Shown here: one piece after another, positions 4,302-64,000 of the stretch
How the letters are laid out: the number at the start of each line of letters is the position of its first letter
Position numbering within the stretch: position 1 is the first letter of the stretch
Assembly: GCA_049999805.1 (NCBI GenBank)
Contig: JBNGIO010006265.1
Span: 115,161-179,160, forward strand
DNA: 64,000 nt
Source of the DNA: Folioceros fuciformis
Taxonomy: Eukaryota
Direction of reading: 5' to 3'
The notes under the pieces: generated by a model
What the model saw: the letters and a program-made list of their open reading frames with translations, nothing else
The model's database searches: none
What the model was told of the DNA's origin: nothing
Made by a program: the position numbers and the translations under genes

Positions 4302-7150
4302 ATGTCCGTGCTGCGCTGTTTGTGTGGAGCTTGGAGATCCTCTGACGCTGAGCAGGTGAATCGCGGCGGCGGCTGCAGGCTAGAATTCACCGAGGCCGGT
4401 GCTGGGAGCCGGGGCGGCGCAGGCAGGGCCTCCTGCCGGGGAAGCTGGCGCTGCGGTGAGGGGATGGTCGGAGGAGGCGGCGGCTGCTCTGTCTGCTGAT
4501 ATCCGCGTTCGGGTTGGAAATGAGGTTGCTGCGCAACCTGCAGCGAGTGCGTGGCACTGTCCTCCTGGCTTACTTTTGCTTTGATTCCGTGTAATTTGGG
4601 GCTTGGATGGCTGTCTGGATGCTGTGGTGGCGAGGATTTGGTGCAGCTCGTTTTCTGCATTGTTTTGACCTAGTTTAGGGAGGGGTTTTGTGGTGGATCG
4701 GCGACTGGTGAATGCGCTGGTGGAGGATTGGTGAGAATTGATGCCATTGGTTGGAATGGAAATTCTGCGGGTTTGAGCTCGCTTTGTTTCTGGCAGGTTC
4801 GACTACAGCTGGCGGTCGCTGCTCGGGGGCAGCGGTGCCTCCCCTTTGATGGAACAGGATCTGCTAGAGGTTTAGTGTCGTCCGACTCGGCGGAGCTGTT
4901 GTCATGTTTGCCCCGAGTCGTGCAGAGGAAATTCGCCGGTTTCCAGCCTGTGCTAGATCCTGGTCTTCGGGAGTCCTCGTCGGGCAGCTATGCCAAGCAC
5001 CAGGTGATTCGCAGCTGGTCGGTCTACGTTATCGCTTTCCGGTGGACCTTATGTTCAGAAGGAGATTCACTCCGGTTGGTGAGGCCTTGTGTAATTTTAG
5101 GATGTGGATGTGTGCAGGATAAGGTGGACCCCTTTTCTTTAGTGGCAGATGAGCTCGCTTTGCTGGCGCACAGATTGCGTGATATGGTTTCTGTTGAGGT
5201 TCGTGCATGCAAGGTGGACGTAATTTGCTGCAGCGACACTTGTATGTAAGGTCAGCAGCTTCTTGTGCGTCTCTTTTCATTGACGAACCTGGTGGTGCAG
5301 GTTCCTAGGTTAGCATCAGCTGCTGAGTATTTCTTCAAGCTTGGGGTTGAAGGCAAACGTTTTCGGCCTATGGTACGGTATCTATCCCTCATGGCTGTTT
5401 TGGCATGGACTTCCTTGTCGCTACTTGTGAGAACTCTCTGTAAACCCAGATAACCTGTACAGCAGTGAGTCGATTCACAAATATCATTTTTCTACGTTCC
5501 TGTCAGGTGTTATTGCTGATGGCATCATCAATGACTGTAGTGCTACCAGATATGGCCTCAACTTTTGTGAACGATCATATGGCAAAGGAGCGGAGGTTGA
5601 GGCAGCAGCGCATTGCAGAAATCACGGAAATGATCCATGTATGCGCTTGTTCCTGTGCAACATACATTGCCTGACAGTTGTTCCGATAGCAGCTTGGCTA
5701 ATATGCTATGGTTCCTTGTAGGTTGCAAGCCTTCTCCATGACGACGTCTTGGACCTTGCAGAAACTCGCAGAGGCGTGGGTTCTCTGAACTTCGTAATGG
5801 GCAACAAGGCAAGTTGCTGACTTTGCCGACTTCCGGTACTGCATTATGAATGACACAGGCAGTGATAAGTGATACCCACTGTCCACTGCGAGAGAATGTT
5901 GTAGTCTAGTTGAAGCAGGGATTTGTTGTCAGCAGTTCAAATCTTTTAAGAATGTTCTGGACTGCTGTTATCTTTAAAGTTCTGAACTTCTGTAAACTAA
6001 CAGCGTGGCTAAACCTGATTGTGCAGTTGGCTGTCCTGGCTGGGGACTTTCTTCTAGCACGGGCTTCTGTTGCACTGGCATCCTTAAAAAATACCGAGGT
6101 ACAGCGATGCTGTTGCTTGGCAATTGCAGAACTTATGGCATCTGTATGATCGATTTGCTCCAGATTTTACATTTTGTCCTCAGCATTTCTTCAATGCGCA
6201 GGTTGTGGAGTTGCTGTCAAAAGTATTGGAACATTTGGTCACTGGTGAAATCATGCAGCTGACCAGCGAAAAGGAAGATAATTTCAGGTGGGCCTGTATT
6301 TGTGTTGTCTTGTGCTTACCAAAAAGTCCCTTGCTCGAAAATAAAATCCGGCCTATACTGCAGTATGGATTATTATATGAAGAAAACGTTCTACAAGACC
6401 GCTTCTTTGATGGCCAATAGTTGCAAGTCAATAGCAATCCTGGCCGATCAGCCAGCTGAGGTTGCCACACTCGCATTTGAGTATGGACGCCACCTGGTAC
6501 GTCTAGGGATGAGGGTTTGGGCTTTCGTTATTTTAACTTGAGGCATGCACGGAGCTGAATCAAATGTCGCGTCTTCACTCTATGCATTTGGAACACCGCC
6601 AGGGTCTTGCTTATCAGCTAGTTGATGATGCGTTGGATTTTACTGGAACACAAGCGACTCTGGGAAAGCCAGCTCTCTCTGACTTGCGCCAGGTATGTCC
6701 CTGGAGTTAATTCTTAACCATGCGTACTGCAATGAGCAAGAGAGAGTTCTGCAGCCTTGTTCTGTGCCCCAACAGGGTCTGGTAACTGCTCCAGTTCTTT
6801 TTGCATTGGAGGAGCAGCCACAAATGTACGAGTTGATCAGCCGGGGATTCAAAGCCCCTGAAGATGTCAATCTGGTAGTCTTCGGCACTCCTGTTCTTGT
6901 TAGACACATCTGCCTGCCTTTTACACAACCGTTCTATGAATCAACGGGGTAAATTGGCTGTTCCTTTCAGGCCTTGAAATTGGTGAATAGCAGCAATGGC
7001 ATCAAGAGGACCCGAGATCTAGCAGCCCAGCACGCCGCGCAGGCCGCTGAAGCCATTGCTTCTCTACCTGACTCCGATTCTGAGAGGGTGCAGCAATGCC
7101 GGCGGGCTCTGAGCGAGTTGGCGGAGCACGTGGTGACGAGAACCAAGTAA
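4302..7150 (+). CDS. Trans-polyprenyl (geranyl/solanesyl) diphosphate synthase, GPS1-like, multi-exon
   Basis: [29 protein letters not shown] (first Asp-rich motif), [32 protein letters not shown] (second Asp-rich motif), ending VVTRTK* at 7150. 5' end unresolved. Confidence 0.9.
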
Positions 7151-8412
7151 TGAGTGAGCAGCATACTCCGCTTTTTGCCTCGCTACCAAGTCAATCGAGT
7201 TGATCATCTCCGATGTACTTGTAGATAATAATCAGTGACAGGAAGCAGTCAGAACTGGGACAGCGAGAATTTTGACAAGAGTCTGGCCGAGCTAGTAGGT
7301 AGAAGGTACTATGCATCCGTACTTCCTGTCTGTTGCCATTGTTTTCCTATTGACAGGCCCTTACAGTAAAGAGGCTTTGATTGGTAGAGTAACTGGTATC
7401 CGCACTGGTTGTGTGAGGATGAACTCACATGCCACCTCTGTAACCTGCTCTCCTTAAAGCACCAGTACCTAGTCGTTTGACTCCATGCAGGGGTGGCCCC
7501 AGTTTCTCCTCAGGCCATAACGAACTTGTCCCCTGTCCAGCAAGCAGGACAGGAGCTGAGTGACGGGAGGCGAGGAGTGGTTGGGGCCTGTCATCGTGTC
7601 CATCGAAGGAGGCCGCGGCCCCGCGTCCAAGACCCTGGAGCTGAGAGTTCCACCTCGAGCTCATCGCGATGGGAGTTGCGGGTACGTCCCAGCCCTAATT
7701 CCCTGTTCATCAATTCCCGCACGGCTGAGCATGTGTGGAGACTACGAAGTTGACCATAGTAAAAGCCAGTGAACGGATAGCCATAAAGACCTGACTTACA
7801 TTGGACTGGAGTTCCGGCTTTGTCGCTGTTGCAAAGTACTGTACATACAGAGAAGTGCGCGACGCCCGCCTTTTTCTTCGGCGGCGCCGGGCCAGCGTGT
7901 CGGTTGTGAGTAAGTTTGAATCGTGAATCTCCGCGCTGGCTTGGCCGTAGCTGGTGCGAGTGTGGAGCGATGGTAGGCAACACATGGGTGGTCTCTGGTT
8001 CAGCCATGGATCCTCCGGCTCCACCACCAGATTGCGCCTGTAGCTACCTGTCATCCCAAGCTACCCACCCGGATCTGTCCTCCACCGGTCGCTCCTTCCG
8101 CTGGCTCCCGGCCCCGAGGAAGGAGAGCAGTCCCAGCCCACGAGCCAGCCCCTCACTCCTCAACGTGCTGCTTATAACATCCTCTTCCGCATTCGTCTCT
8201 TCGGTGAGCCTTTCGAACACCCAACCACCCGCGCACCTGCCTTCTCCCCACTCCACCCCCCCGCCCCCCCGAACCTTCCTCCGCCCTGGCGTGGTGCACA
8301 GCTCGCTTCTCGCACTTCCGGCAGGTGAGCAGGTGCGCCAGGAACGGATTGAGTAGCGTTTCTGTTTCTCTTTGTGGTTTGGTTTCCTGTGAGGTTGGTG
8401 GGCGATTGTGGA

Positions 8413-8512
8413 NNNNNNNNNNNNNNNNNNNNNNNNNNNNNNNNNNNNNNNNNNNNNNNNNNNNNNNNNNNNNNNNNNNNNNNNNNNNNNNNNNNNNNNN
8501 NNNNNNNNNNNN
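8413..8512. other. Assembly gap (100 N)
   Basis: Run of N. Confidence 1.
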
Positions 8513-8883
8513 GTTTGGGACTCTTGTGATGCGTGGAGTGGGGGAGGATTTGGGTTTGTAAGAGGGAGGGATGACAGAATGCTTTGAGTGAGTGAGGGAG
8601 TGAATGAATAAATGACTGAATGAATGAGCGAGAAGCTCTGCGTTGGTCGGGCAAGGCTCTAGGATTAGGGTGTGAATCACTTCGTCGTTGTAATGCATCT
8701 GCTGCTGCTGACCAGAGCGTTTGTGACAGGTCTTTAGGCTTTTAGTAGGCATTTGGTGACTGTTTCGGTCACGCAATCGATATTCGACAGTTAGCATGCT
8801 TTGTTTGCTATTCTCCTCTGCCTTTGCGTCTGTTTCTGGGAGGCGTGACTGAATAAAGAGGTCCCATTTGAGGGAAGTGGAAG

Positions 8884-11126
8884 ATGCATATGGCTTTCCG
8901 AGCTCCAGGATTCTTTGCGGATTTCAACTTCCCGGAGAAGTTGGTTCCCAGTTATGAGCGGACTCTGCTGGTGACGTCACTCATGGGCCTGTGGCAGGCA
9001 TTCTCCATTTTGATCTTGGTGGCGGTTGTCGGCGGCTTGCTGCTGGCTCAGCTGCAGAGATGGTTGCAGAGGTACCTGACGCAGGAAAGCGATCCTGGCG
9101 CCAGTCTGGAATGTGCATCGGAAAGCGCTGCCGCTGGTGGTGCTGGTGGCGAGACTGAGGGTGTGGTTTCGGCCCGCGCATTCTCGGCTGGAGCTGGAGC
9201 TGGAGTGGTGCCGGCTGCAAGGGAGGATGACGCTGCTTTTTCCAACGATGGGGTGTATGACGAAGACGGGCTGCTAGGAGGGCTCTGGAATTTGAATTCG
9301 GCGTTGCACTTTGGGCAAGACTATGAGTGGATCTACAAACTTTCAGAGGCGAATCTTGAACTGGGGGATGCGAGTCTGGCATCTCTGTACGCGCAGGCTA
9401 GCAGTCTTTTAGCCGAGCTTTACGCGCGTCTTCTGTTGAAGTATTCGCAGTTCACTGCTGCGGATGAATGTGAGGCTGGAGGGTCTGTAGGGAGCGGTGA
9501 GGACGATGAAGAGGAAAGCTTTCGCAATCCTCGCTGTTGCGGATCGGCCACCTGCGTTTGCTTCAGCGCGGATTCCTGCGATGGAATGCGCGGTAACTTG
9601 CCGACAAGGAGGAGGAAAGCAATGCAGCAGCTGCAAACTGGTGAGAGGATGGAGGACGAGGGCGAGGAAATCGCGTCCATCGAGGCAGATGAAGTGAGCC
9701 CTAATGTTGAATGGGGCCTCCGGAAGAAGGATTTGATTGCTGAGGAGAATAGGCGGCTGGACCTGAGCCGTGGATTCTCCTTCTCAGCTGCAGGTCTACT
9801 GTTCCCCTACTATCTAGGGGTGGCGCATTGCCTGAAAGAGCATGACTTCCTGAAGGTTAGGCACCTTGCCTTCCTGCTGAATTTGGTCCTGTCTGTGAGT
9901 CAATTGGAGTGTCGAAGGGTTTGTTTTGGAGCATGCAGCATGACCGGGATGAGCGACAAGGTATCATTCGTGTTGTTGTTTGTCGTAGGAAGATACTCCG
10001 CTTGCGGGTTCATCAGCCGGCGCCCTTGTGTGTGCTGTTGTTGCGGGGGGTGTGAATATGCGGGATTCGTTGGAGGCCACGAAGGAACTGGGGAGAGAGT
10101 GTCGGGAAGGTGGAACAGCCTTCAAACTCGGGGTATAGATCATCACCTTCTTGTGCAATAAGCTGGTAGTATAAAAATTGCATCTGCTCTTACTCATATG
10201 TCTACCTCATTCTGTTCCATGCAGGCAGTTTTGAGGCGCTTCTTGGATAGGTTCCTACCAGTGGATGCCCATCTGAGAGCGAATGGTCGAATTAGAGGCA
10301 CGTTCACACATCCATAGAGCCACGATTGATCTAGGAGTTCTTGTGTGAAAGGTTCCTTGAAGGGCACTAAGTGGATGATCTCAGCATTACAGTCTGTTAG
10401 GCTGATGGGAATCTTTTGCTGGTTGGGTTTTGCAGTGTCCATCACACAGGTCTTTGGATCACCGAAAGGCCTACTCGTGGATCAGTTTGATTCCAAGGAA
10501 GATCTTTTGGACGCTCTGCTGGCTTCCTGTCACATTCCGTTGTATGTTGCCGCAGGCTCAAACTTCGATTGGATTCCAAACCTTTTCGTTTCCTGTATTC
10601 TGACCCACGATCCGGTGTTTCAGATATTTTGCATCTTGGCCTGTTACACTCTTTAGAAATCGCATCTGTTTGGATGGAGGATTAGCATTTTTCGCGCCAC
10701 CGACAGCAGCCAATCATACAGTAAGCGCTTGCTCATGGAAGTAACAACCAAGTGAAACTGCGCCCTCTCCCGGCTTATGTGCTGCTTGCTGCAATCGTCT
10801 GCAGGTCAGAGTGTGTCCCTTCCCAGGACTAAGATTTGGGAGTTTTGGCATCAGCCCTGATTGTAATCCTTCATTGAAGAGGCCCAACCTGTTCCAGGTA
10901 CACTCGAAAACACACAAAGTTTGAAGCGGAATCGTGCTTGTAGCTGTCCTAAAACGCCTTGTGTTTTTTTTCCGGACAGCTTGTGAGGTGGATGTTGGTA
11001 CCCGCAGAAGACCACCATATGGAGGAGCTTTTTGACCTAGGCTTCCAGGATGCTTTAGGTTGGTGCCGTAAGCATTCACGGTGCAGAACGGATGGTACCC
11101 AACGGAAAAAGAAGAAGCAGCTATAA
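8884..11126 (+). CDS. Patatin-like phospholipase, about 7 exons, with a hydrophobic N-terminal segment
   Basis: GFSFSAAGLLFPYYLGV, lipase motif GSSAG (DTPLAGSSAGAL), DALLASCHIP, catalytic DGG (RICLDGGLA). Last exon ends KKKKQL* at 11126. Confidence 0.88.
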
Positions 11127-11434
11127 CATCAACTAGTGTAGATAATCAATTCATCTGCTGCCGAAGTCCAGCCAGGATCTGGCTGGGTGGCACATTGATT
11201 CCCTGCCATGGTCTAAAATCGCCACGTCTCTGTACAATAAACGCTGGAAGCAGAAGTGTTTGAAAAGGTGTATCCTAGTAACGAGGTTCGGAACTACAGA
11301 CATACTGTACTTGGTTTCTGTATACCAAATCAGATCATATTCTCTCCACTCGGTTTCTCACCTCCACCCTGATTGTGTGCGTTGATGCTGGCTGTCAAGT
11401 ATTGCCTCCTGTGTGGAACATGTCGTAGGAAGTT

Positions 11435-14400
11435 ATGGCCGTGCGCTTGGTGAATTCCGTTCACCCGCTTACAGACTTGGGTACTTCGACCAAGGATTCG
11501 AAATCAAAGACTGAGCAGCGACCGTGGATCCGTGTCGACTCCACAGGCCCCCTACTCGCAGCTTCGTCTGTAGGGATCGGCATCAGCCAGGAAGCTTTGG
11601 AGAGAGCGAGGCTGGAGCTGTTATGGCAGGACCTGTTTTCTGATCCTCGACACTGGTGGGACAATAGGCAGGGCAAGAGAAGCGTCCGCGACCCTGACTT
11701 CCGGCACAAGAGGTCCAAGGAGGGCCTGTTTGTGGACAACAAATGCAAGCCTGCGTGGGTGGAGTCGCAGCTAGCGGCGTGGGATGCTCAGCTGGACTGC
11801 ATTTCAGGAAATGGCGGCAATGCACAAGCTGGATGCTGGAGCAACGTGTGGGAGCCAGCACAGCTCAGTGAAACAGTTCACTCCCTGGATGTCTTGGTGG
11901 AAGGAGGGTGCCATGTTGACACCTCTTGCGTCTACCGCGTGCTTAGAAGGTGCATGGCCGAGAAGAACTTAGCCTTGGGCATGCGTGTGCATGACATAAT
12001 TCGCAAGAGTGGGTATGAGTCGGATACGTTTTTGGCCAACCATGTCATCCGTATGTATGCTTCTCACAAGAGGTTGCAGGAGGCACTGCAAGTGTTTGAG
12101 AACGTGCCCACTCCGGACGCCTTTATGTGGTGTGCCATCATCAAGGCCCATGTAGAGAGTGCGCGGCCTACGCAGGCTATGGAGTTCTATAGGCAGATGC
12201 GTGAGTCGACTGTCAAGCCGGATGTATACATCGTCCCAGCTGTTCTCACAGCTTGTGCCAGTGCAGGAGATTTGGCTTTCGGGAGGGGAGTGCATGCCGA
12301 TGTTGTGGGGACTGCGGTTGAACAGAATGTGGTTGTGGGCAACTGCTTGGTAGACATGTATGCCAAATGTGGGAGCTTGGCAGATGCTCGGAAAGTTTTT
12401 GACAGATTGCGAGCAAAAGATGTCGTGACATGGACGGTCATGATCAGAGGATATGTACAGCATAGCCGAGGTGGCGAAGCTATTTCTCTGTATAGAAGTA
12501 TGGAGAAGGAGGGCATCGCTGTGGCAGACCATGTTACGTTTGTATGCCTCCTGAAAGCGTGTACAGACATTGGAGCTTTCCATGAGGGGAAGAATCTGCA
12601 TTCTGAGATTCGAAAAAGGGGACTTGAAGCTGATGTGGTCCTTGGGAACTGCTTGGTGGATATGTATGCGAAATGTGGGAGTTTGGGGGATGCTCGCAGG
12701 GTATTTGACACGTTGCCCAAAAGAGACGTGGTCTCATGGACTGCCATGATTGCTGGATACGCTCAGCATGGTCTCGGTCAAGAAGCTCTCACTTTGTATG
12801 CAAGTATGCAGCGTGAGGGCTTGACTGCTGCAAATCATGTCACATTCGTGTGCCTCCTGAAAGCCTGTATGAGCATTCGGGATGTAGAGGAAGGGAAGGA
12901 GATCCACAGACACATACAGCGGCGAGGGCTGGAAGCTGATGTGGTTATTGGCAGCTGCCTGGTGGACATGTATGCCAAATGTGGGAGCTTGGAGGATGCA
13001 CGCAGGTTATTTGATAGCTTGTCCACCAAGAACGTGGTCACTTGGAATGCTATGCTCTCAGGATATGTGGAGCATGGGCTCGGTCAAGAAGCCCTTTCTC
13101 TTTACTCGATTATGCAGCAGAGTGGCCTGACACCTGACTACGTCACCTTTGTTTCCCTCCTGCAAGCATGCGCCAGCATTGGAGCATTGGATCAGGGGAA
13201 GCAGTTTCACTCTGAAATCCTAGATTTAGGGCTACAAGATGACGTGGTTGTGGGCAATTGCCTGGTGGCTATGTACTCCAATTGTGGGAGCTTGGAGGAT
13301 GCAAGGGGAGTGTTTGACACGTTGGCAGCAAAAGATGTGATCACATGGACATCCATAATCGCTGGATACGCAAAATATGGGAATCTAATGGAAGCCCGCA
13401 GAATGTTCGACAGCTTGGAGACAAAAAATGTCGTGACATGGAATGCGATGATATCAGGATATGTCCAGCATGATCTTGCTCTAGACGCTCTGGCTCTTTT
13501 TGCAACTATGCAACAGGAAGGCATTACTCCAGCTAGTCATGTTACTTTTGTATGCCTCCTTCAGGCCTGTGCCAGTGTCGGAGCTTTGCATCAGGGCAAG
13601 CAGTTGCATACTCAGATTCGAGAACAAGGACTGGAAGCTGATTTGGTTCTTAGTAACTGCTTGGTGGACATGTACTCTAAATGTGCTAGCATAGACGATG
13701 CTCGAGGAGTGTTTGACACATTGCCCGTTAAAGATGTGGTGACCTGGACTGCGATGCTCAATGGGTATGCCAGACATGGTGATGGCCGCATGGCAATCAA
13801 ATGTTTTAAGGAGATGCAGCAGGAAGGTATCGAGCCTGATGGGGATACTTTTAGTTGTCTTCTCGTTGCCTGCTGTCACAACGGCCTTGTGAATGAGGGC
13901 CAGCAGTATTTGAAAACAATGGTGGACGACCATGGCATTACTCCCTGTGATTATCACTACACCTCCATGGTTGATCTTCTTGGGCGGTCTGGCCGTCTAG
14001 ATGAGGCAGAAGATATCTTGCTAACAAAACCATTCAAGAACGATGTTGTAGCGTGGACTTCTTTGCTGAGTGCGTGCAAAAGCCATGGGGATGTTGAGCG
14101 AGGGCAGAGATGTTTTGACCGTCTTACTACAGTGGACCCTCAAAACGCATCTGCGTACGTTCTCCTGAGCAGCATCTTCGCAAATGCTGGAAGCTGGGGG
14201 AAAGTAGACGAGATAGAGGAGATGAGACGTTCTGCAGGAGCTTGGAAGAAGCCTGCAAAGGCCTGTATTGAAGTGAAGAACCAGGTGCGTGAGTTCATCG
14301 TGGGAGAAAGTGAGGACGACCTTTCGTTGAAGTCGAGAAAGCTCACCTCGATAGTGAAAAACGAAGGAGGCCACATTCCACACACGGATTTGATACATAG

Positions 14401-14650
14401 GGCAATGTCTCTCAGTGAGAAGGAGGATGCTTTGTGTGGCCATGCTGAGAAACTGGCTTTGGCTTATGGGCTTCTCAACACTGCCGACGGCACAACTCTG
14501 CTTGTAACGAAGAATCTGCGGATGTGCGAAGACTGTCACAGTAGCACTAAGATTCTTTCACGCCTTGAGAAGCGAGAGATAGTAGTTAGAGATGCACACC
14601 GTGTACACCGTTTTCAAGATGGGTTGTGTTCTTGCGGGGATCGGCATTGA
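11435..14650 (+). CDS. PLS-class PPR protein with E1/E2 and DYW:KP (KPAxA, DRH-ending) domain; candidate organellar RNA-editing factor; N-terminal PDF motif
   Basis: Intronless 1071 aa ORF with about 21 P/L/S/SS motifs, WKKPAKA, HAEKLA, NLRMCEDCH and C-terminal CSCGDRH. Confidence 0.95.
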   Translation: MAVRLVNSVHPLTDLGTSTKDSKSKTEQRPWIRVDSTGPLLAASSVGIGISQEALERARLELLWQDLFSDPRHWWDNRQGKRSVRDPDFRHKRSKEGLFVDNKCKPAWVESQLAAWDAQLDCISGNGGNAQAGCWSNVWEPAQLSETVHSLDVLVEGGCHVDTSCVYRVLRRCMAEKNLALGMRVHDIIRKSGYESDTFLANHVIRMYASHKRLQEALQVFENVPTPDAFMWCAIIKAHVESARPTQAMEFYRQMRESTVKPDVYIVPAVLTACASAGDLAFGRGVHADVVGTAVEQNVVVGNCLVDMYAKCGSLADARKVFDRLRAKDVVTWTVMIRGYVQHSRGGEAISLYRSMEKEGIAVADHVTFVCLLKACTDIGAFHEGKNLHSEIRKRGLEADVVLGNCLVDMYAKCGSLGDARRVFDTLPKRDVVSWTAMIAGYAQHGLGQEALTLYASMQREGLTAANHVTFVCLLKACMSIRDVEEGKEIHRHIQRRGLEADVVIGSCLVDMYAKCGSLEDARRLFDSLSTKNVVTWNAMLSGYVEHGLGQEALSLYSIMQQSGLTPDYVTFVSLLQACASIGALDQGKQFHSEILDLGLQDDVVVGNCLVAMYSNCGSLEDARGVFDTLAAKDVITWTSIIAGYAKYGNLMEARRMFDSLETKNVVTWNAMISGYVQHDLALDALALFATMQQEGITPASHVTFVCLLQACASVGALHQGKQLHTQIREQGLEADLVLSNCLVDMYSKCASIDDARGVFDTLPVKDVVTWTAMLNGYARHGDGRMAIKCFKEMQQEGIEPDGDTFSCLLVACCHNGLVNEGQQYLKTMVDDHGITPCDYHYTSMVDLLGRSGRLDEAEDILLTKPFKNDVVAWTSLLSACKSHGDVERGQRCFDRLTTVDPQNASAYVLLSSIFANAGSWGKVDEIEEMRRSAGAWKKPAKACIEVKNQVREFIVGESEDDLSLKSRKLTSIVKNEGGHIPHTDLIHRAMSLSEKEDALCGHAEKLALAYGLLNTADGTTLLVTKNLRMCEDCHSSTKILSRLEKREIVVRDAHRVHRFQDGLCSCGDRH

Positions 14651-14820
14651 TGAAAAACCTTCTCGAAACCCAGAGTGCACCCTAACGTAATTAGTTCACC
14701 CCTATCAACCAGATTCTAGCAGAGGTCCTTGTACCTTCTAGTCTTTCCTGAAAAGGTAACCCCTTACAATTCCTTCATGGAAAGGCGCACATCCTAGCTC
14801 AACAAATGCACTATCTGTGC

Positions 14821-15407
14821 TCATCTGAACGACTTTGAAACAGGGCCACGAGACAATCCCAGCCGCACTTCCATCCCGTGATGCAAATCAGCCGACACGA
14901 ACGATTCGGAGTCTCGCGGATCTGCAGACACGAGGAGGAGCTCATCAGACAACATACCCTAATCAAGTGTTAAAACTTCAGGTGTGCTCCGGCACACTGT
15001 GCTGACCATTCAGATAGTCTTCAAAACCGAAGCTCTCCAAGGTCCTGTTGTAGGAGTCCAAGCCAAGCATGGAGGAAGGCACCAAACCCGGTGGTCGCTG
15101 CACGCTGCACACCCCAACACTCTATCAGTCTCCGCAACACAAAGAGCAAAGTCCTAGCTGACGGGGGAGCTCGTTACCGAGACAGAATTTGCTGCTCAAT
15201 GTCCATCTTTGTGACAAAAGCCGACCCCTGCAGGTGTCTTAACATGTTTTTCCTAGTGTCCTCCTGCAACTTCTGATGCGTGCGCTGCACGGTCTCGGCA
15301 GCATGCCTCGGCAATGCATCTTGTTTCAGAGCAGGCAAACCAAATCGGAGAGAGTCGTGCGCCCCAAGCACATCATGCGGCAAAGATGTTCCCTCCTCCA
15401 TGTCCAT
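14821..15407 (-). CDS. UMP1: Proteasome maturation factor UMP1/POMP homolog, 3 exons
   Basis: HDSLRFGL...LRHLQGSAFVTKMDIEQQILSR | QRPPGLVPSSMLGLDS...FGFEDYLN | DPRDSESF...HHGMEVRLGL, with stop at 14821. Confidence 0.88.
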
Positions 15408-15571
15408 GACGAAACCGCTTAGAGGGTGGAGCAGAACCCTCGGCCAGTCAAGCAAACCTCACTCCGCAGAGTGTGAGCAAGTTCTATAGCATTTGAGGTG
15501 GAACTTGTGTCGAGTTCATCGTTATCCACTTTTACATTTATATATTTCAATATAAATGAAGACTTGCATAC

Positions 15572-15644
15572 TCCGTTGTAGTCTAGACGGTTAGGATACT
15601 CGGCTCTCACCCGAGCGACCCGGGTTCGAGTCCCGGCAACGGAA
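15572..15644 (+). tRNA. tRNA-Glu (CTC)
   Basis: Acceptor stem TCCGTTG/CAACGGA, anticodon arm CTCGG-CT CTC AC-CCGAG, GGTTCGAGTCC T-arm, TATAAAT about 20 nt upstream. Confidence 0.95.
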
Positions 15645-16947
15645 TACAATGCGATTGTTAGCTCCATGAAAACTTTGCTTTTAACAGTCTTTTGCAGTTT
15701 GTAAGGATATGAAACATACCAATGTAGCCTAGATATGATTAGTGTAGCCTGCCTAGCATGAGATAGCTTATCTCACTAAACCATGCAAAGCTATATAAAC
15801 TATGAGAAGGTGGATGACTTGTGTAAAGCTGGAATATGACTTGTCCTAGTTCATGGATGACATGTCCTAACAAACTTGTGAACTAACCCTCTAGGTGAAG
15901 CTATAGAACAATTCTAGCTCACCATATTATGCAAGCCTCAAAAATTGTTTACAATAAATGTCAAAACAACATGAACTATCATGTAGTGTTCACAATGTGT
16001 GCTAGCTATGTATGACCTATCATTAGTAGCTCACCCATTATAAAGTCATATGAGGTATCTTAGCTTAAATCTGTATGAACTAACGTAGCTTAATAAATGA
16101 TTATTTTAACTATTTTTGTTAATCAGCTAACCCCTTGTGGGCATTGGCTAAAGCTGTAGGCATTTAAATGTATAAGACAGCACTAATGAATACAAATACG
16201 AACTTTTGATATCTTCATAGTTACAACAACATAGTAAACAAGGGAGGTCAATCTGTGCTAGGTATTCCCTCTCTCTCTTTGGGGTAGATGAGTGATCATT
16301 TATATATATATAATTTTATTTATTAAATATAATATAATTAATATAAAATACTTTTATAATAAAACCCCTTTAATTAGAAGCAAGTAGCAAGACCAAACAC
16401 ATCATTAGGCTTACATATTCCTTGCCTTCCATGCATGTCTCTAATTTATTTATTGATGATATACTTTGACCCGATAAGACTCATAATTTTAGGCAGGTCG
16501 TCTTCCGAAGAGCAGCGCGCTGCTAGGTACTGTACCCAAGGCTTCAAGTTGCTCACAATTTCACGTTCAGTACGAATTGGGACACGATAATGGCCTTATT
16601 CTCAACCGTCACGGACAATTCGATGTCAGCACTGTGAGTCGTCGACAAAATCCTTACACCATTCGTGCAGGGTCAGAATCGCTGAGCCTGAGACAGACCA
16701 GTTACCTCCAGCAGAGGCTGCTGGTGATGAGGAGGGCTCGCGGAAGGGCAAGCAAATCTTGTTCTCTGTTCGATCGTGCAATCTAGTCTACCTGTGCGTC
16801 GTTGGAGGTGACGGCCTCTTCAGGTATTTGGAGCTGAAATTTGAGGTGTCTTGCTCCTTCGCTGACTGGTAGATCATGGTACGTATCGGGCTGTTATTTA
16901 CGAGTCTGATGAGAAGTATTCGCAGAGCATCGAGAGTAGGAGCCGGC

Positions 16948-19944
16948 ATGAACCATTTTGATCTACCCTTGCAGCCATGCCTGGCTGCCAAGTCGCTTGC
17001 TGTCGTTTTCTCAGAGGAGAAAGGCCGCTGTCTGATAGCCTCCCGTCATTTCTCGAGAGGTTAGTTGCCCGTTTGCTTGCGAGGGAACGAGATTTGACTA
17101 CATACGATCTTTGCACTGCGATTCCTGTCTACCGCTCTCTGTCGGAGACTGAAGTGAAGGTCTTGCGGAGTGGGGGTTTACAGGCTGAAATGCCCGGGAT
17201 TTTGTTAACAAGCCTTGACTGTACAGGAGAAGTGATTCTGGATCAAGAACCATACGTATCGGTACTTGATGCTGAGTCGAAGGAGAAGAGGTGTGACAGC
17301 TGCTTTGCAGAGTCGAGTATATTAATGAGGTGTTCTGCGTGTAAGAACGTGTGGTACTGCTCTAGCACTTGCCAGGTATGCATAGGTCCTTTTCAGCGGT
17401 ATTGGTATTGCAGCCCTGTGGGAGTTCTGGTACCTCTATGTGGGGACAGTCCCGTTCGGTTGTTAAATCGTGCCCAATCTGGTGTTCCCGCATTGCCAGA
17501 AGAAGGCGTGGAAGTTGCACCAGGCTGAATGCGCAGCAATTGCCAAGCTCTGGAAGGAGAAGCAACATAGGCCTACGCCGTCGCTGACCTTAATGGTTCG
17601 ATTGTTTCTGAGACGGAAATTGCAAGAAGAGGAGGTACTTTGATGATGTTGGCCGTTATTCCTCTGTCAACAAGTGTCGCTGGATTAGGGTTCCTGTTCT
17701 GCAGTCAACCGGAGTGGCTTTTAAGGTTCTAGAGGTTGTATGTGGGATGACTGCCTGGCAGTTGACATTGTTGCGTAGAGGAGTTGAGTATTGACGTGCA
17801 GATTGCTATTTGACATCGTTCCGTTTCACAAAACTAGGATTTCCTTGTAGGTGATACCTCGGACAGCAATGGACCACTACGGGCTCGTGGAGGCTTTACC
17901 TAGCCGTATCCTAATCATGCGTCCGGAATTCAAGTCCTTGGCAAATAGCTGAGCAAGTGAAGGGAATCATGGACTGTTTATGCATGCCTTTGACTTCGTT
18001 TCAGATATGTCCAAGACTGGGGAGGAGAGACTAGTTTTGTATGCACAGATGGCAAACCTGGTGAAACTATTGGGTGTGCCCGAAGACATTACCTTGAAAT
18101 CCATCACCGAGAACTTTTGCCGAGTAACATCTTCAGCTTCTGCTCTTTCTTGGAAGACTGAATGGGTCTTATGTTTTTTCTCATTTTTCCTGTTTGGATC
18201 GTAGTTTGCCTGCAATGCCCATACAATATGTGATGAAGAATTGAGGCCCTTGGGGACTGGGCTGTATCCTCTCATATCTATTGTCAATCACAGGTGATGC
18301 TCGTAGTAGTATTTCCAAAACTTGGTTAACGAGATGGAACGTTTGAGCTTCTGAAGAAAACTGACTTGGGTAACTCACACAGTTGCTCCCCGAATCTTGT
18401 ATTGTTATTTGAGGGCAAGCGGGCAGTGTTACGTGCAGTAGAGAACATCGAGGAGGGCTCTGAGGTAAGACATGGTCTTCTGGTGTATTGATGCTTGTAG
18501 TCAGTGCAGGAACATTTGTGAACAACGCTTCCCACAAAGGTTTGGCGCATATAGCTATAGTTTTTCTCTTTGTTTGAATCCCTGTCCTGCTGGTTGCATA
18601 GCTTACAGTGAGTTATGTGGAGCTTGGTGCTAGCACATCCTCTCGCAGAGCAACTTTGAGGACTCAGTACTTTTTCCACTGCAACTGTTTACGGTGCAGT
18701 CGTGGGGTAAGGTTCGATTATCCTCCCTCCCTCATCGCATGCTATGGCCATGCATTAGCCCAGTGATCGACAAATTTGCCTTTATTTTTCTTGAGGTCTG
18801 CTTCCTTTACTTTTCCATGTCAACATGGATGATATGTCCTTTTGGTTGTCAGGATTGTGAAGAAGATGCTATGCTCGAAGGATTTAGATGCTCAGATCTG
18901 AACTGTGCAGGCACTTTACATCCGTCCGCTGGTATATGTCTGTATTGCCTTCAGTGGTCTGGACCAGGATCAGTGGACACCTTTCTGGAAGTGACAATGT
19001 GGGACTTGCTTGTTGCCATTTATTTGATGTGATTTCGCATTGTTCACATGTAGCTGGCAATTATGCATGCCACTTTTGTGGCAATGAGCGGTCAGAGCCT
19101 GATCTCCGGAAGGTAGCCAGTAAATCTGAACAGCTTTTGCAAATAGCAGCAGGTCTCAGTTCTTCTGGAAGTATCCTTCTCACTGTCCACTCTGTGGTAC
19201 TGATCTTTACATGCCACCCTCAAAGCGATGTAAGTGTAAACATGTAGCATTTCTTTTACCAGCCTTCTCAGAAACCCGCGAAGCGAGGAAAGCCTATGAA
19301 CGAGCAGAAGAGGAGCAGCTCAAAGTCTGGCACCCTTACTCAGTTTTCCTGATGAGAACTAGGGATAGTCTGATGAAGGTACATGTTTTATCCGTCCACC
19401 TCAAACACTGAGAGCGTGTGGGCCCCGTGGAAGGGTGCTGATCTAGTGTGTGTCAAAAATTGCAGCTGTGTATGGAGACGCAGGACTGGCAGAGTGCTCT
19501 ACATTATGCCAAGCTGACGCTTCCTGTCTATGAGAGTAAGTTAGAAAGCTTCCCACTCGTAATACTTCTTTCCGGCCTCGTTAAAAAATTGTTGGTTGCA
19601 AAATTGCAGGGATATATCCACCTTACTTCCCCCTTTTGGGTCTGGAGTTGTATTTTCTGGCAAAGCTCGAGTGGTGAGTTGCCCTTGTTACTGACTTGCA
19701 TCCACAGCTACCTAGTGTTTGATAAGTTGGACCAACTGTACTTTGACTAGTCCGAACTCACGAGGACTATGGCAGGTTTGTGGGCCACACGGCCGAGGCT
19801 GTGACTACCCTGACTCGAGCACATGAGATTTTAGGCTTCACGCATGGAGCACACTCGCGTTTGTTTCAAGGCCTTGCGCAGCTTCTAGGAGAAGCACGTG
19901 CCGAGGCAGCTCATGTATACCTGAGCGTATTTGGGACTGACTGA
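16948..19944 (+). CDS. ASHR1: SET and MYND domain lysine methyltransferase (ASHR1/SDG37, SMYD-like), multi-exon
   Basis: EKGRCLIASRHF, MYND finger CDSC..CSACK.VWYCS..CQ, CNAHTICDEELRPLGTGLYP, SET motif NHSC.PN, post-SET YFFHCNC.RC, ending AAHVYLSVFGTD*. Alternative upstream ATG at 16876. Confidence 0.9.
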
Positions 19945-20603: not shown

Positions 20604-21104
20604 CTAGCTAAGACCTGAGACAGCTGATTTGGAAGGGCCATGTACAAGAGTTGAATTGGAAGACTTCATACGCTTCCCACTAGTACCAGTAGACCAAAGT
20701 TGCACACCACTACCATTGTACATTACCACATTACCATCGTCCTGCAAGATGATGTAGTGAGCACCATCTTGGCCACAACAAGTTCCAGTGCTGAAAATCG
20801 AAACATTAGCATCCGTAAAGAGCTCCGCATTGCCATTGGTTTCCATCTTGAAGTAGCATCCTAGGCCTTTATTCGCTGTGTTGGTGGACCATATTGCTGT
20901 ATTTGTCTTCTGGTTGTAGAGTACCAAGTTGCAGTCATATTGCATAGTGAATAAGTGAGGCCATAGTATCAAACCGTCACCTGGAGACAATTGATAGCCC
21001 TCTATCAACACTTGGCTGTTACAATGAGCAACCTGGATAGAGGAAGCAAACACGTACAATAAAACTATCATCTGCAAAAAGATCATGGCCTTCAAGATTG
21101 CCAT
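20604..21104 (-). CDS. Bulb-type (GNA-related) mannose-binding lectin, secreted, copy 1
   Basis: Hydrophobic signal peptide; QxDxNxVxY motifs QYDCNLVLY and QDDGNVVMY; W-S-T-N-T segments; intronless. Confidence 0.9.
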   Translation of the reverse strand: MAILKAMIFLQMIVLLYVFASSIQVAHCNSQVLIEGYQLSPGDGLILWPHLFTMQYDCNLVLYNQKTNTAIWSTNTANKGLGCYFKMETNGNAELFTDANVSIFSTGTCCGQDGAHYIILQDDGNVVMYNGSGVQLWSTGTSGKRMKSSNSTLVHGPSKSAVSGLS

Positions 21105-21915
21105 TTCTGACTATGCTTAGCAATAAGAAACAAGCTGGTTGCCCCTCAGAAGGTTCACCACAAAGATAGCACAATCAATGACATACGTTGAAAGGAATTG
21201 GGCCTAGACTCCAATATATAGACGTGTGAGAGCATTTTACATCGATAGAGTTGTATCTTACCTCGATTGTTTGTAATTTATCTTGATTCATTCTTTGAAA
21301 TGAATAAAAAAAAAAAAGGTTTCATTTCTTCTACAAAATATGGCTTATTAATGATGTAGACATGATTCGGGTGTGAGGACCTATTGTATCGCTAGCTTTT
21401 TATTTTACCTCCATCAAAAAAATATTTTTTCTTTCTTTGAAATGTATAAAAAAGGTTACATTTCTTCTATAATTTCTTTTGTATGGTTTATTTATTCACT
21501 GAAATTATTTTAAAAAATCTTAATATTCTTTTCGAAAGTACTTAGAGGGGCCTTAGGTTGGTTCAATGCTTGAGATGCATAACCTCTTGAGAAGTCCTAG
21601 TGTAGCACTCTTTACAAGCATTGTTGGGTGACTTCCAATGAGGTCTCGTCTCAATGCATCCTTCATAGGTGTATTGATCGAAGCGCTTTTCTGTGCCCTC
21701 TTATGGGTTGTTTTTTCAAGTCTTAGGGTAAACCTTAGTGCTCCTTCTTTGCTCTTTGGTGGATGTTTCCCTCCCTTCACACTAGATGCAATTTCTCATC
21801 TCTTCTTTTTGTAAAATTTCTATAATGCTTATAGCCTACGTATTGTTCCAACTAACAACAAAGGTGTAAGATCCTTCCATTATGTAAGTATTGTTCCAAC
21901 AATCGCAAAAGGTGT

Positions 21916-22876: not shown

Positions 22877-23407
22877 TCAAGCGGTTGATTTAGAAGGACC
22901 ATGTACAAGAGTTGAATTGGAAGCATCCACTTTAAAAGGATCATGCTCAATACTTGAACTAGAAGCATTCACCTTCTTGCCACTCGTAGCTGTAGACCAA
23001 AGTTGCACACCATTACCATTGTACATCACCACATTACCGTCATCCTGCAAGATGATGTAATGAGCACCATCTTGGCCACAACAAGTTCCAGTGCTAAAAA
23101 TCGAAACATTAGCATCCGTGAAAAGATCGGCATTGCCATTCGTTCCCATCTTGAAGTAGCATCCTACGCCCTTGTTCGGAGTGTTGGTAGACCATATCGG
23201 TGTGTTTGTCTGTTGGTTGTAGAGTACCAAGTTGCAATCCGATTGCATGGTAAGTAAGTGAGGCCATAGTATCAAACCATCACTTGGAGACAATTGATAG
23301 CCCTCTATCAACACTTGACTGTTACAATGGGCAACCTGCACAAAGGAACCCAAAACGAGCAGCAATGTTGCAATATGCAACAAGATCATGACATTTAAGA
23401 CTGCCAT
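22877..23407 (-). CDS. Bulb-type (GNA-related) mannose-binding lectin, secreted, copy 2
   Basis: ATG at 23407 (MAVLNVMILL...); QSDCNLVLY and QDDGNVVMY; near-identical to copy 1 in the mature domain. Confidence 0.9.
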   Translation of the reverse strand: MAVLNVMILLHIATLLLVLGSFVQVAHCNSQVLIEGYQLSPSDGLILWPHLLTMQSDCNLVLYNQQTNTPIWSTNTPNKGVGCYFKMGTNGNADLFTDANVSIFSTGTCCGQDGAHYIILQDDGNVVMYNGNGVQLWSTATSGKKVNASSSSIEHDPFKVDASNSTLVHGPSKSTA

Positions 23408-24196
23408 TTCTAACAAGGGTAGATCGTGAATAAAAAGTAGTTGGTCACACGTGAGAACTTGAGAAGGTTCTCTACAAAGACACAACAATCAATGACATAA
23501 ATTGAGAGGAACTAGGACTCACATATGTAAAGGTTTGAGAACATATGACATCGCTAGATTTGTATTTTATCTCGATGAAACGATTTTTTTTATTTTTTTA
23601 AATAAAAAAATATTTCTTTTATAAATTATTTTTATGATGTATGTATTAACCAAAAATGATTCGCAACAAAATCCTATTTTTGTTTCAAGAATTTCTCTTA
23701 CTAGGCATAGCGAGTGGCATACCCTAAAAGGGTTATGTAAGAGAGTTAAACCCTTGACACAGAACTTTAGTACAATTAGTAAGACATGGGCCAAAGATGT
23801 CATTTACTATGGTATCATTAATACTACCTAATTTACAGATGTCTCTGCATCCTTCCATGTTCCTCATATCGGCATTAGAGATGTTTCTAGAAACAAACCT
23901 TAATAACTCCACCCCCTCATTATAATCATATTTTACACATGAACATGAATAAAATATAAGCATTTTCTTTCAACTAGATGTGAACACTCATTCTTTTTGT
24001 TGCTTATTAAGTTAATAAGATTTTTTGATCATAGAATAAGTTATATTTTCAATATTTAATAAATATCCCTATGCATCCCTATTCATCTTATGCATGATTT
24101 AATACAACTTTCTATACCAAGATTTGTGTTACAAAGAAAAGTCCATAACACCGATGAGATTTAGAAACCTAAGAACCTAAAAAAAATCACAGAGAA

Positions 24197-35036: not shown

Positions 35037-35201
35037 CCTCTGCCCGTCACCATCACTAAACCTTTCCACATTCAGACACTCTCTCCCAGGAAAGGTTTTA
35101 GGGTCTTGGAACTGGAATGCTCCTCTCAAACCCTTGAGGTCGACGAGACAAGCTAGAAGCTTGTCAGTTTTAGAATAATCTGGGCGGTGGCAGCATCCGC
35201 C

Positions 35202-39772: not shown

Positions 39773-39904
39773 CTCGTCCGGCGCCTCTGATGGCCTCTCG
39801 GTTAGTTTCCTTTGCGCATGGATACCATCTGTACTTATCCACCGAAATTGAGTTTTGCAACCACAAAAGACAACATCAAAGACGAGAGAAAAAAAAGGAG
39901 GCGT

Positions 39905-39977
39905 CGATCACGGCGGGACTCGAACCCGCAATCTCCCGCTCCGGAGGCGAGCGCCTTATCCATTAGGCCACGCGACC
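39905..39977 (-). tRNA. tRNA-Arg (CCG)
   Basis: Reverse complement GGTCGCGTGGCCTAATGGATAAGGCGCTCGCCT-CCG-GAGCGGGAGATTGCGGGTTCGAGTCCCGCCGTGATCG, followed by a T-run Pol III terminator. Confidence 0.95.
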
Positions 39978-63669: not shown

Positions 63670-64000
63670 CTCGCAACCTCGATCCTGACAGCTTCACCCG
63701 CTTGCCGACGCATGAGTCGTCTACCACATCATTGGAAATAGAATCCCAGCAGCCTCCAACTTCTGGCTTTGTAGGACACCTTGAGGAACTCCACAGTGAA
63801 CCCGCAGCCGGACCAGGACAGAACAACCCAACACATTCCCCAAGCCGAGCCAGCCATGATCATCACCGCGTCTTCACGCAAGAACAGAATTCTACGAACA
63901 AGAGAAGAAGAAGAACACCCGGGCGCAGGCAAATCGAAGTTTGCAACGTGCAGGCTCTGCACACGAGGTGGCACGGCGGACAGGATCAAGAGGTGTCGCG

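What the first reader, a model, noticed from the sequence alone, without database searches (positions are those of the whole stretch)
14243..14650. DYW:KP (KPAxA...DRH) domain: candidate reverse U-to-C RNA editing enzyme
Seen: WKKPAKA replaces the PG box, HAEKLA replaces HSEKLA, the Zn ligands (HxE, CEDC) are intact and the protein ends DRH, not DYW. Established: KP-type DYW domains are restricted to hornworts, lycophytes and ferns, which perform U-to-C editing. Inference: this gene is an intact U-to-C organellar editing factor.
Basis: partly seen in the sequence, partly recalled or inferred. Interest (0 to 1): 0.8.

Follow-up and report, generated by a model that had tools for sequence, protein, structure and literature searches.

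The report
Hornwort-type PPR protein with KP-variant deaminase
This is an intact, transcribed plant nuclear gene for an RNA-binding repeat protein whose end domain belongs to the known variant class linked to "reverse" U-to-C RNA editing in organelles; it is one ordinary member of a very large, already described gene family, and its own activity remains untested.

Summary
Window 11435-14650 (+) is one uninterrupted 1071-aa ORF. It encodes an N-terminal extension, 21 PLS-type PPR motifs, E1, E2 and a 133-aa DYW-family domain. That domain has the KP box (WKKPAKA), HAE in place of HSE, CxxC, CSC and a ...DRH end.

Classification as DYW:KP is well supported:
- A KP-type HMM built without the query scores it 219.2 bits, against 135.0 for a PG-type HMM.
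- In a tree of 86 domains, all 37 KP-box rows sit on one side of a branch with SH-aLRT 97, and the query falls among DRH rows.

The gene is transcribed. Contigs of a run that splices out the neighbour's introns cover it with no differences.

U-to-C activity is inferred only. No natural KP protein had been assayed as of 2025. The consensus designer built from DRH proteins was not among the three active designs. The domain also carries residue states that push designer KP6 in both directions. The target could not be searched, because no organelle sequence was available.

One extra finding: the N-terminus carries an OSB-type "PDF"-like motif.

Verdict: a new member of a known kind, of modest interest.

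The parts
11337..11434 (+). 5' untranslated region (minimum extent)
   Evidence: An RNA-run contig (X1 record 3) begins at 11337 and matches with 0 differences. The upstream gene's contig ends at 11319. An in-frame stop lies at 11426-11428.
11435..14650 (+). Intronless CDS of a 1071-aa PLS-class PPR-E1-E2-DYW:KP protein (stop codon included)
   Evidence: Single ORF. Pfam gives PPR_2 3.9e-108, PPR 3.7e-103, E_motif 1.1e-11 and DYW_deaminase 8e-33. X1 contigs tile 11337-14921 with 0 differences and no joint in the exact-match contigs listed.
11600..11797 (+). N-terminal PDF-like motif (residues about 56-121; contains WWDNR...PDFRHK)
   Evidence: phmmer of residues 46-125 against 1.84 billion representatives gave 596 hits at E<=1e-3 and 137 at E<=1e-10. 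In relatives the motif follows an SSB/OB domain, which is the OSB architecture; P0121 and P0147 are above the Pfam cutoff. In other relatives it precedes PPR tracts: 15 of the 150 top hits. No Pfam model matches it.
11921..14044 (+). PPR tract: 21 motifs (L-S-P-L-S-P-L-S-P-L-S-P-L-S-SS-P-L-S-P2-L2-S2), residues 163-870
   Evidence: Segmentation by hand, with lengths and positions 5/last printed by script. Pfam PPR families.
14045..14245 (+). E1 (residues 871-904) and E2 (905-937) motifs
   Evidence: Pfam E_motif covers residues 884-945. Segmentation. The AlphaFold2 model shows helix pairs here with pLDDT 85-97.
14249..14647 (+). DYW:KP domain, 133 aa (K1 P2 ... D131 R132 H133)
   Evidence: Fold matches to 9kfx (E 5.1e-18), 7o4f, 7o4e and 7w86.
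14441..14449 (+). H65-A66-E67: zinc-binding His, KP-typical Ala, catalytic Glu
   Evidence: Sequence and numbering. H, E and the preceding C-G are invariant in 28 KP-type sequences. HAE occurs in 32 of 36 KP rows and 0 of 48 PG rows.
14510..14512 (+). Lys88 equivalent (K of KNLRMC)
   Evidence: Numbering. Invariant. Lys88 is essential for U-to-C activity in designers KP2, KP3 and KP6 (PMC11845758).
14525..14539 (+). C93-E-D-C96-H97: CxxC zinc ligands, and the His assigned to the second zinc site
   Evidence: Sequence. C, C and H are invariant in 28 KP-type sequences. The assignment to the second zinc site is recalled from the OTP86 structure literature and was not tested here.
14627..14647 (+). 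C-terminal CSCGDRH (DRH in place of DYW)
   Evidence: DRH is named as one of two hornwort KP subgroups in PMC9478123.
14651..14921 (+). 3' untranslated region, overlapping the end of a convergent minus-strand transcript
   Evidence: X1 record 6 runs 12962-14921 with 0 differences, then joins across CT..AC (minus-strand GT..AG) introns at 14921/15007 and 15104/15178. One contig across two genes does not show one transcript.

Best explanation
A nuclear, intronless, transcribed gene of a seedless land plant, most likely a hornwort. It encodes a PLS-class pentatricopeptide-repeat RNA editing factor of the DYW:KP class, DRH subgroup. Inferred mechanism: the protein is imported into plastids or mitochondria. 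Its 21 PPR motifs plus E1/E2 bind about 24 nt of one organellar transcript just 5' of the target. The PPR code predicts, for positions -24 to -3, 5'-nU?nUGnUAnAUnUACnUGnGA, where n marks an L motif and ? marks a position with no clear code. The target pyrimidine sits at 0. The C-terminal zinc-dependent deaminase-like domain then converts that uridine to cytidine. [quoted passage not shown] What is shown here: gene structure, transcription, domain architecture, KP/DRH class, and presence of all catalytic and zinc residues and of Lys88. What is inferred: organelle import, the target, and the direction of the reaction.
For: ORF and motifs. Pfam PPR, E and DYW domains.

KP class:
- A KP HMM built from 36 relatives without the query scores 219.2 bits, against 135.0 for a PG HMM built from 48.
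- IQ-TREE on 86 domains places all 37 KP-box rows, query included, on one side of a branch with SH-aLRT 97. The query is next to DRH rows.
- Of the 36 KP rows, 32 have HAE, 36 have CGHxE and 0 end in W. Of the 48 PG rows, 47 have HSE and 46 end in W.
- The domain is 133 aa and lacks xHP.
- K88, M92 and A66 fall at the numbering used in the papers.
- Zinc and catalytic residues are invariant among 28 KP sequences.

Fold: AlphaFold2 mean pLDDT 82.4. Foldseek best hits are the DYW structures 9kfx, 7o4f, 7o4e and 7w86.

Transcription: run X1 skips six GT..AG introns of the upstream gene, which DNA run X2 does not. X1's contigs cover 11337-14921 with 0 differences.

Positional counterparts at about 88-93% nucleotide identity appear in the transcript contigs of organism B (X4), joined to the same neighbouring genes on both sides, and of organism D (X9), joined to the downstream neighbour only.

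Literature (passages only): DYW:KP is restricted to the U-to-C-editing clades and matches U-to-C sites by PPR code. Designers KP2, KP3 and KP6 perform U-to-C editing (PMC9478123). Lys88 is essential (PMC11845758; PMC11332814).
Against: - No natural KP protein had a demonstrated activity as of 2025 (PMC11845758).
- The designer KP1, built mainly from DRH proteins, is not among the three designs reported active in E. coli.
- In KP6 numbering this domain carries C6, A116 and V119. That is 3 of the 5 single substitutions that favoured U-to-C. It also carries G64, V113 and H133, all 3 substitutions that made KP6 a C-to-U-only enzyme. H133 is the H of DRH. The direction therefore cannot be read from the sequence.
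- The target site could not be sought, because no organelle genome or editome of this organism was reachable.
- Organelle targeting rests only on an N-terminus rich in Ser and Thr: 12 of 45 residues, with 4 acidic and 6 basic.
- The organism is coded, so 'hornwort' is inferred from DRH/GRP relatives and from the lack of any close named relative.
Confidence: 0.68

Rival explanations
1. The protein is an organellar editing factor, but it works as a C-to-U deaminase or in both directions, despite its KP-type sequence.
For: Designer KP6 edits in both directions in human cells. Three substitutions (E64G, L113V, F133H) make it C-to-U only (PMC11845758), and this domain has G64, V113 and H133 natively. 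The HxE/CxxC deaminase centre is intact. The DRH-based designer KP1 showed no reported U-to-C activity.
Against: G64 (CGHxE) is present in all 36 KP-type relatives examined. These include the 4 GRP rows, the type on which the U-to-C-active designers KP2 and KP3 were based, so G64 cannot be a C-to-U marker outside the KP6 background. The domain also has C6, A116 and V119, the KP6u states. Lys88 is present. KP2, KP3 and KP6 showed no C-to-U activity in bacteria.
Confidence: 0.14
2. The protein binds RNA but does not catalyse editing on its own. It could act as a specificity or stabilising factor, or it could need a hornwort-specific partner.
For: KP1 (DRH consensus) is absent from the active designs. 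U-to-C does not complete in vitro or in bacteria without crosslink resolution (PMC11332814). The additional N-terminal PDF-like nucleic-acid-binding motif hints at functions beyond editing.
Against: Every catalytic and zinc residue, and Lys88, is conserved and invariant across 28 KP relatives. That is not expected for a domain without catalysis. The full-length ORF is kept and transcribed.
Confidence: 0.13
3. It is a recently duplicated, functionally redundant or decaying paralogue of a huge family, with no target of its own.
For: The family is very large. PPR-motif stretches of the gene attract hundreds of paralogous contigs (depth peaks of up to 5338 in X1 and 30788 in X9 at 12614-13014). 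Two atypical code pairs occur at N-terminal motifs (C/D and Y/D).
Against: The 3213 nt of coding sequence are open, with no frameshift. The exact sequence is transcribed. Counterparts are kept in the same gene neighbourhood at about 88-93% identity in two other coded organisms. The nearest paralogue-like relatives in the database are only 67-70% identical over the C-terminal 192 aa, so this is not a recent copy.
Confidence: 0.05

Closest known systems
Hornwort DRH-subgroup DYW:KP proteins (described by Gerke et al. 2020 as cited in PMC9478123; designer KP1 is their consensus)
   Same: KP box, HAE, a 133-aa domain lacking xHP, and a C-terminal DRH. 8 of the 36 KP-type relatives found here also end in DRH, and the query groups with them.
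   Different: This is a natural protein with its own 21-motif PLS tract and an N-terminal PDF-like motif. KP1 is a consensus domain on a designer tract and was not among the active designs. Gerke et al. 2020 is not held in the library. Whether this exact gene is already in their candidate list, or in its supplements, could not be checked.
Designer U-to-C editors KP2/KP3 (hornwort GRP type) and KP6 (fern type)
   Same: Same domain class, Lys88, A66, M92 and zinc centre. The 4 GRP rows form a clade (SH-aLRT 97) among the query's DRH-like neighbours; the enclosing forks are weakly supported or unresolved.
   Different: The end is DRH, not GRP. According to PMC9478123, GRP proteins replace the conserved Asp and a conserved Lys (PG K103) with Glu. 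The query's DRH end keeps the Asp; the K103-equivalent position was not checked here. Activity is shown for the designers and not for this protein.
DYW:PG C-to-U editing factors (OTP86 PDB 7o4e/7o4f, DYW1 7w86, synthetic PPR-DYW 9kfx, moss PPR56)
   Same: PLS-E1-E2-DYW architecture, HxE...CxxC...CSC zinc signature, the same fold, and the conserved active-site Lys.
   Different: KP box instead of PG box, HAE instead of HSE, no xHP, no DYW tail, 28-42% identity over the C-terminal 192 aa, and 84 bits lower on the PG HMM than on the KP HMM.
[quoted passage not shown]
   Same: Residues about 56-121 are homologous to the motif that follows the SSB/OB domain in proteins with the OSB architecture. 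The motif is described as about 50 aa with conserved P, D and F, and as sufficient for ssDNA binding in AtOSB1 (PMC6963530).
   Different: Here a single copy sits at the N-terminus of a PPR editing factor, with no OB fold. The equation with the published PDF motif rests on architecture and on the P-D-F signature, not on a curated model (no Pfam match).

Membership tests
PLS-class PPR-E-DYW RNA editing factors | Tandem P/L/S pentatricopeptide motifs | tested here: met
   Pfam PPR_2 3.9e-108, PPR 3.7e-103, PPR_1 2.1e-50. 21 motifs of 31/35/36 aa were segmented.
PLS-class PPR-E-DYW RNA editing factors | E1/E2 motifs between the PPR tract and the DYW domain | tested here: met
   Pfam E_motif 1.1e-11, residues 884-945. 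Segmentation.
PLS-class PPR-E-DYW RNA editing factors | C-terminal DYW-family deaminase domain with HxE...CxxC and C-terminal H/CxC zinc ligands | tested here: met
   PF14432 8e-33. PDB matches. Ligands are present and invariant among 28 relatives. The fold matches 9kfx, 7o4f, 7o4e and 7w86.
DYW:KP subclass | Lys-Pro (KPAxA) in place of the PG box | tested here: met
   WKKPAKA at 14243-14263. Definition from PMC11845758 and PMC11332814.
DYW:KP subclass | Ala (or Cys) instead of Ser after the zinc-binding His (HAE) | tested here: met
   HAE at 14441-14449. 32 of 36 KP rows against 0 of 48 PG rows. Definition.
DYW:KP subclass | C-terminus not DYW; 132/133-aa domain lacking the xHP triplet | tested here: met
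   Ends in DRH. 133 aa from K1-P2. No xHP.
DYW:KP subclass | Groups with KP rather than PG domains by profile and by tree | tested here: met
   +84.2 bits for the KP HMM with the query held out. KP rows lie on one side of a branch with SH-aLRT 97. Caveats: both reference sets were drawn from this query's own search hits, and the tree used a quick search on 138 columns.
DYW:KP subclass | Occurs in a hornwort, lycophyte or fern | tested here: inconclusive
   The organism is coded. The closest relatives are unnamed. The first named ones are Diphasiastrum (53%) and Ceratopteris (50%). A neighbouring glycolate oxidase ORF is 64-71% identical to same-length named land-plant homologues, best Sphagnum, and has no close named relative. 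This is consistent with a hornwort but is not proof.
DYW:KP subclass | Catalyses U-to-C conversion at a PPR-specified organellar site | not testable with these tools
   Needs an assay or an editome. Literature evidence exists for designer proteins only.
Hornwort DRH subgroup | Last three residues are D-R-H, and the domain clusters with other DRH proteins | tested here: met
   Ends in DRH. The nearest rows P0004, P0002, P0007, P0006 and P0003 all end in DRH. The inner forks have only 82-87 SH-aLRT, so the subgroup is not resolved as a clade here.
OSB-type PDF motif | About 50-aa motif with conserved P-D-F, found after an OB/SSB fold in organellar ssDNA-binding proteins | tested here: inconclusive
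   Homology to motifs C-terminal of SSB domains was found. 4 of the 10 hits scanned have an SSB match, 2 of them above the Pfam cutoff. The consensus of the published motif is recalled, not seen. No OB fold is present in this protein.

The most novel reading that the evidence does not exclude
The N-terminal OSB-type PDF-like motif is a working second nucleic-acid-binding module. It defines a small sub-architecture of editing factors (PDF-PLS-E-DYW:KP), seen in the query and in 3 of 98 DYW relatives, all KP type. It might tether the editor to nucleoids or nascent transcripts, or supply the function whose absence left the DRH-consensus designer inactive in bacteria. If so, this native gene would be a better starting point than consensus designs for reconstituting natural DRH-type U-to-C editing.
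Probability: 0.12. Interest if true: 0.55.

Novelty: new member of a known kind. Interest (0 to 1): 0.3.

Why it matters
U-to-C editing is the only transition-type RNA base change without a well-understood natural enzyme, and designer KP domains are being developed as programmable editors. Passages read here state that no natural KP protein has a demonstrated activity. Any intact, expressed native DRH-type gene is therefore a usable test object, especially because the DRH consensus design was not among the active ones. This gene is nonetheless one of very many similar genes in such genomes, and nothing in its catalytic domain departs from the described subgroup. Its value is as a well-annotated example with a predicted binding sequence, not as a discovery. 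The N-terminal PDF-like motif is the only feature not mentioned in the editing literature I could search.

Tried and rejected
- **Whole-genome search.** No genome is held for this window. The number of KP/DRH paralogues could not be counted and no organelle contigs were available.
- **Target search.** No plant organelle sequence is reachable with these tools. The low-GC stretch at 20-28 kb was checked as a possible organelle insert. It holds lectin-like ORFs instead.
- **RNA holders.** One search listed no holder on record as RNA. X1's RNA nature was inferred from spliced joints.
- **Orthologue proteins for a dN/dS test.** Neither the 'near' search nor the 'shorter' search (13 hits at E<=1e-40 among 765 candidates) returned anything above 70% identity. 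The counterparts in organisms B and D are known only as difference counts, and its difference table was truncated, so no dN/dS was possible.
- **ESM Atlas search of the N-terminal motif.** No usable hit. Pfam on the N-terminal 162 aa gave 0 families at E<=10.
- **Gerke et al. 2020 (New Phytol).** Not held. Gutmann et al. 2020 was not sought. Supplements are closed. Whether this gene already appears in published candidate lists is therefore unknown.
- **Earlier findings of this scan.** Nothing by place, sequence or words.
- **Pseudogene reading.** Rejected because the ORF is intact and the exact sequence is transcribed.
- **PG-type reading.** Rejected.
Full report
**Observation**

Window 11435-14650 (+) is one uninterrupted ORF of 1071 codons, with an in-frame stop immediately upstream. 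The finding's coordinates, 14243-14650, are exactly the last 136 codons including the stop.
- The W of WKKPAKA starts at 14243.
- HAE lies at 14441-14449.
- The Lys of KNLRMC lies at 14510-14512.
- CEDC lies at 14525-14536.
- The protein ends CSCGDRH, followed by TGA.

Pfam finds PPR families (E down to 3.9e-108), the E motif (1.1e-11, residues 884-945) and DYW_deaminase PF14432 (8e-33, residues 979-1069). phmmer against PDB sequences finds three distinct chains: a synthetic PPR-DYW (9kfx, 4.7e-46), DYW1 (7w86, 3.2e-29) and OTP86 (7o4e, 2e-28).

**Anatomy**

Hand segmentation, checked by script, gives these parts:
- an N-terminal extension of 162 aa;
- 21 PLS-type motifs (residues 163-870) ending in P2-L2-S2;
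- E1 (871-904) and E2 (905-937);
- a domain that is 133 aa long when counted from K-P.

With that start, the residues named in the literature fall at their published numbers: A66, K88 and M92. The 133-aa length and the missing xHP triplet match the description of most DYW:KP domains (PMC9478123).

An AlphaFold2 model of E1-E2-DYW, built from an alignment of 28 sequences, has mean pLDDT 82.4. Only the variable stretch before the HAE helix is poorly predicted. Foldseek ranks the DYW structures first: 9kfx at 5.1e-18, then 7o4f, 7o4e and 7w86.

**KP or PG?**

A search with residues 880-1071 returned 85 proteins at E<=0.001 among 920 candidates. Their C-termini split cleanly.
- In the 36 best hits (P0002-P0037): HAE 32, HSE 0, CGHxE 36, ending in W 0. 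Eight end in DRH and four in GRP.
- In the 48 lower hits (P0039-P0086; every named one is a seed plant except one Selaginella protein (P0045) and one unnamed EukProt transcript (P0073)): HSE 47, HAE 0, ending in W 46.
- P0038 is intermediate and was left out of both sets.

HMMs built from the two sets, with the query held out, score the query 219.2 bits (KP) against 135.0 bits (PG). A maximum-likelihood tree of all 86 domains puts the 37 KP-box rows, query included, on one side of a branch with SH-aLRT 97. The tree used an IQ-TREE quick search on 138 columns. The query's nearest rows all end in DRH, and the four GRP rows form a clade of their own (SH-aLRT 97) among them.

Two caveats apply. 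Both reference sets come from the query's own hit list, and the inner forks are weakly supported.

**Expression and conservation**

Of the 24 runs listed for the gene, three hold half or more of its sampled words, and all three are from coded organism A.

Laid on 7000-19000, run X1 skips six GT..AG introns of the upstream gene (for example 9853/9987), whereas DNA run X2 does not. X1 is therefore RNA. Its contigs tile 11337-14921 with 0 differences, and no joint appears in those exact-match contigs. The gene is therefore transcribed and intronless.

Transcript contigs of two other coded organisms (X4, X9) cover the gene at about 88-93% identity. X4 gave 73/915, 92/1288 and 44/417 differences; X9 gave 110/1294 and 50/420. 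In X4 they are joined to the same upstream and downstream neighbours. In X9 only the join to the downstream neighbour was seen. This indicates positional orthologues.

Their sequences were not obtainable, so selection could not be measured. Database relatives reach only 70% identity over the C-terminal 192 aa.

**Organism**

The organism is coded.
- The literature restricts DYW:KP to hornworts, lycophytes and ferns, and names DRH and GRP as the two hornwort subgroups (PMC9478123; PMC13386178).
- The best named relatives of the domain are a lycophyte (53%) and a fern (50%). More than 20 unnamed proteins are closer, at 59-70%.
- A neighbouring intronless glycolate-oxidase ORF is 64-71% identical to same-length named land-plant homologues, best Sphagnum, and has no close named relative.

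A hornwort is the most economical reading, but it is an inference.

**Function**

What follows from established knowledge is that PLS-E-DYW proteins are site-specific organellar RNA editing factors.

For the KP class, passages I read state four things:
- KP proteins match U-to-C sites by PPR code, and three of seven consensus designers (KP2, KP3, KP6) convert U to C in E. coli.
- Lys88 is essential, and its substitution switches the enzyme to C-to-U.
- A Schiff-base crosslink mechanism is proposed.

Two points weigh against simply reading function from class. First, KP1, the design based mainly on DRH proteins, is not among the active ones. Second, in KP6 numbering this domain has C6, A116 and V119, which are U-to-C-favouring states. 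It also has G64, V113 and H133, the three states that together made KP6 C-to-U only.

G64 is universal among the KP relatives here, GRP rows included. These states are therefore background-dependent and do not decide the direction.

I put U-to-C editing at about two in three. C-to-U or bidirectional activity and non-catalytic roles share most of the remainder.

The PPR code (positions 5 and last; assignments recalled from the published code) predicts U, U, G, U, A, A, U, U, A, C, U, G, G, A. These fall at positions -23, -20, -19, -17, -16, -14, -13, -11, -10, -9, -7, -6, -4 and -3. This could not be tested, because no genome or organelle sequence is held.

**An extra feature**

Residues about 56-121 (WWDNR...PDFRHK...) match no Pfam model. 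phmmer against 1.84 billion representatives found 596 proteins at E<=1e-3 and 137 at E<=1e-10, many with 2-12 copies of the motif.

Of ten hits scanned with Pfam:
- four have an SSB/OB match N-terminal of the motif, which is the OSB architecture; P0121 and P0147 are above the Pfam cutoff, P0100 and P0130 below;
- four are PPR proteins with the motif at the N-terminus;
- one is a kinesin;
- one has no domain.

By BLAST, 15 of the 150 top representatives combine the motif with a PPR tract. Among the 98 DYW relatives, 3 carry it (P0005 DRH; P0015 and P0021 GRP), and all three are KP type.

The OSB 'PDF motif' is described as about 50 aa and sufficient for ssDNA binding in AtOSB1 (PMC6963530). A full-text search for 'PDF motif' together with 'pentatricopeptide' found only that review, so I saw no description of the fusion. 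The library does not hold the main PPR surveys.

**Verdict**

The functional claim is a reasonable but untested inference, with specific caveats for the DRH subgroup. The gene is a new member of a known and very large family. Interest is modest. The PDF-like N-terminus and the availability of an intact, expressed native DRH gene are the only points worth following.

Noticed in passing
window 11600-11797 (+), residues about 56-121 of the PPR protein: OSB-type PDF-like motif (WWDNR...PDFRHK) at the N-terminus of the editing factor. It is homologous to repeats found after SSB/OB domains and at the N-terminus of other PPR proteins (15 of the 150 top representatives). 3 of 98 DYW relatives carry it, all KP type.
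   Followed up: partly
window 8634-11319 (+): Upstream spliced gene with at least six short introns of 82-138 nt. Five of the six joints were reported with GT..AG ends; the sixth, 10295/10434, was reported as AG..GC. Its translated first exon looks patatin-like (GFSFSAAG...; recalled resemblance, and Pfam found nothing in the long ORF). Its transcript contig ends only about 18 nt before the PPR gene's contig starts. In organism B one transcript contig runs through both genes.
   Followed up: partly
window 14921-15412 (-): Convergent minus-strand gene with CT..AC (that is, GT..AG) introns at 14921/15007 and 15104/15178. Its transcript end overlaps the PPR gene's 3' UTR in the RNA contigs.
   Followed up: no
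window 15572-15644 (+) and 39905-39977 (-): Two nuclear-type tRNA genes: tRNA-Glu(CTC) and tRNA-Arg(CCG) (Rfam 63.9 and 61.5 bits; ARAGORN).
   Followed up: no
window 20604-21110 (-) and 22877-23488 (-): Two tandem paralogous ORFs with signal-peptide-like starts and bulb-type (mannose-binding) lectin-like sequence (...QDDGNVVMYN...; recalled resemblance). They lie in a low-GC stretch (36-40% GC, 20-28 kb) that differs from the ~50% GC of the rest of the window.
   Followed up: no
window 35157-36308 (+): Intronless ORF for a glycolate oxidase / (S)-2-hydroxy-acid oxidase (Pfam FMN_dh 2e-139). It is 64-71% identical to same-length named land-plant homologues, best Sphagnum. It lies in a GC-rich stretch (55-63%).
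   Followed up: partly
window 37517-39907 (-): Long single ORF (796 aa from stop to stop) with a YqeH-like C-terminal domain and an MMR_HSR1 GTPase domain. It is possibly an organellar ribosome-assembly GTPase. It abuts the tRNA-Arg gene.
   Followed up: no
window 50809-57905 (-) and 61639-63693 (-): Several long ORFs (478-794 aa) without any Pfam match at E<=1e-4. They were not examined further.
   Followed up: no
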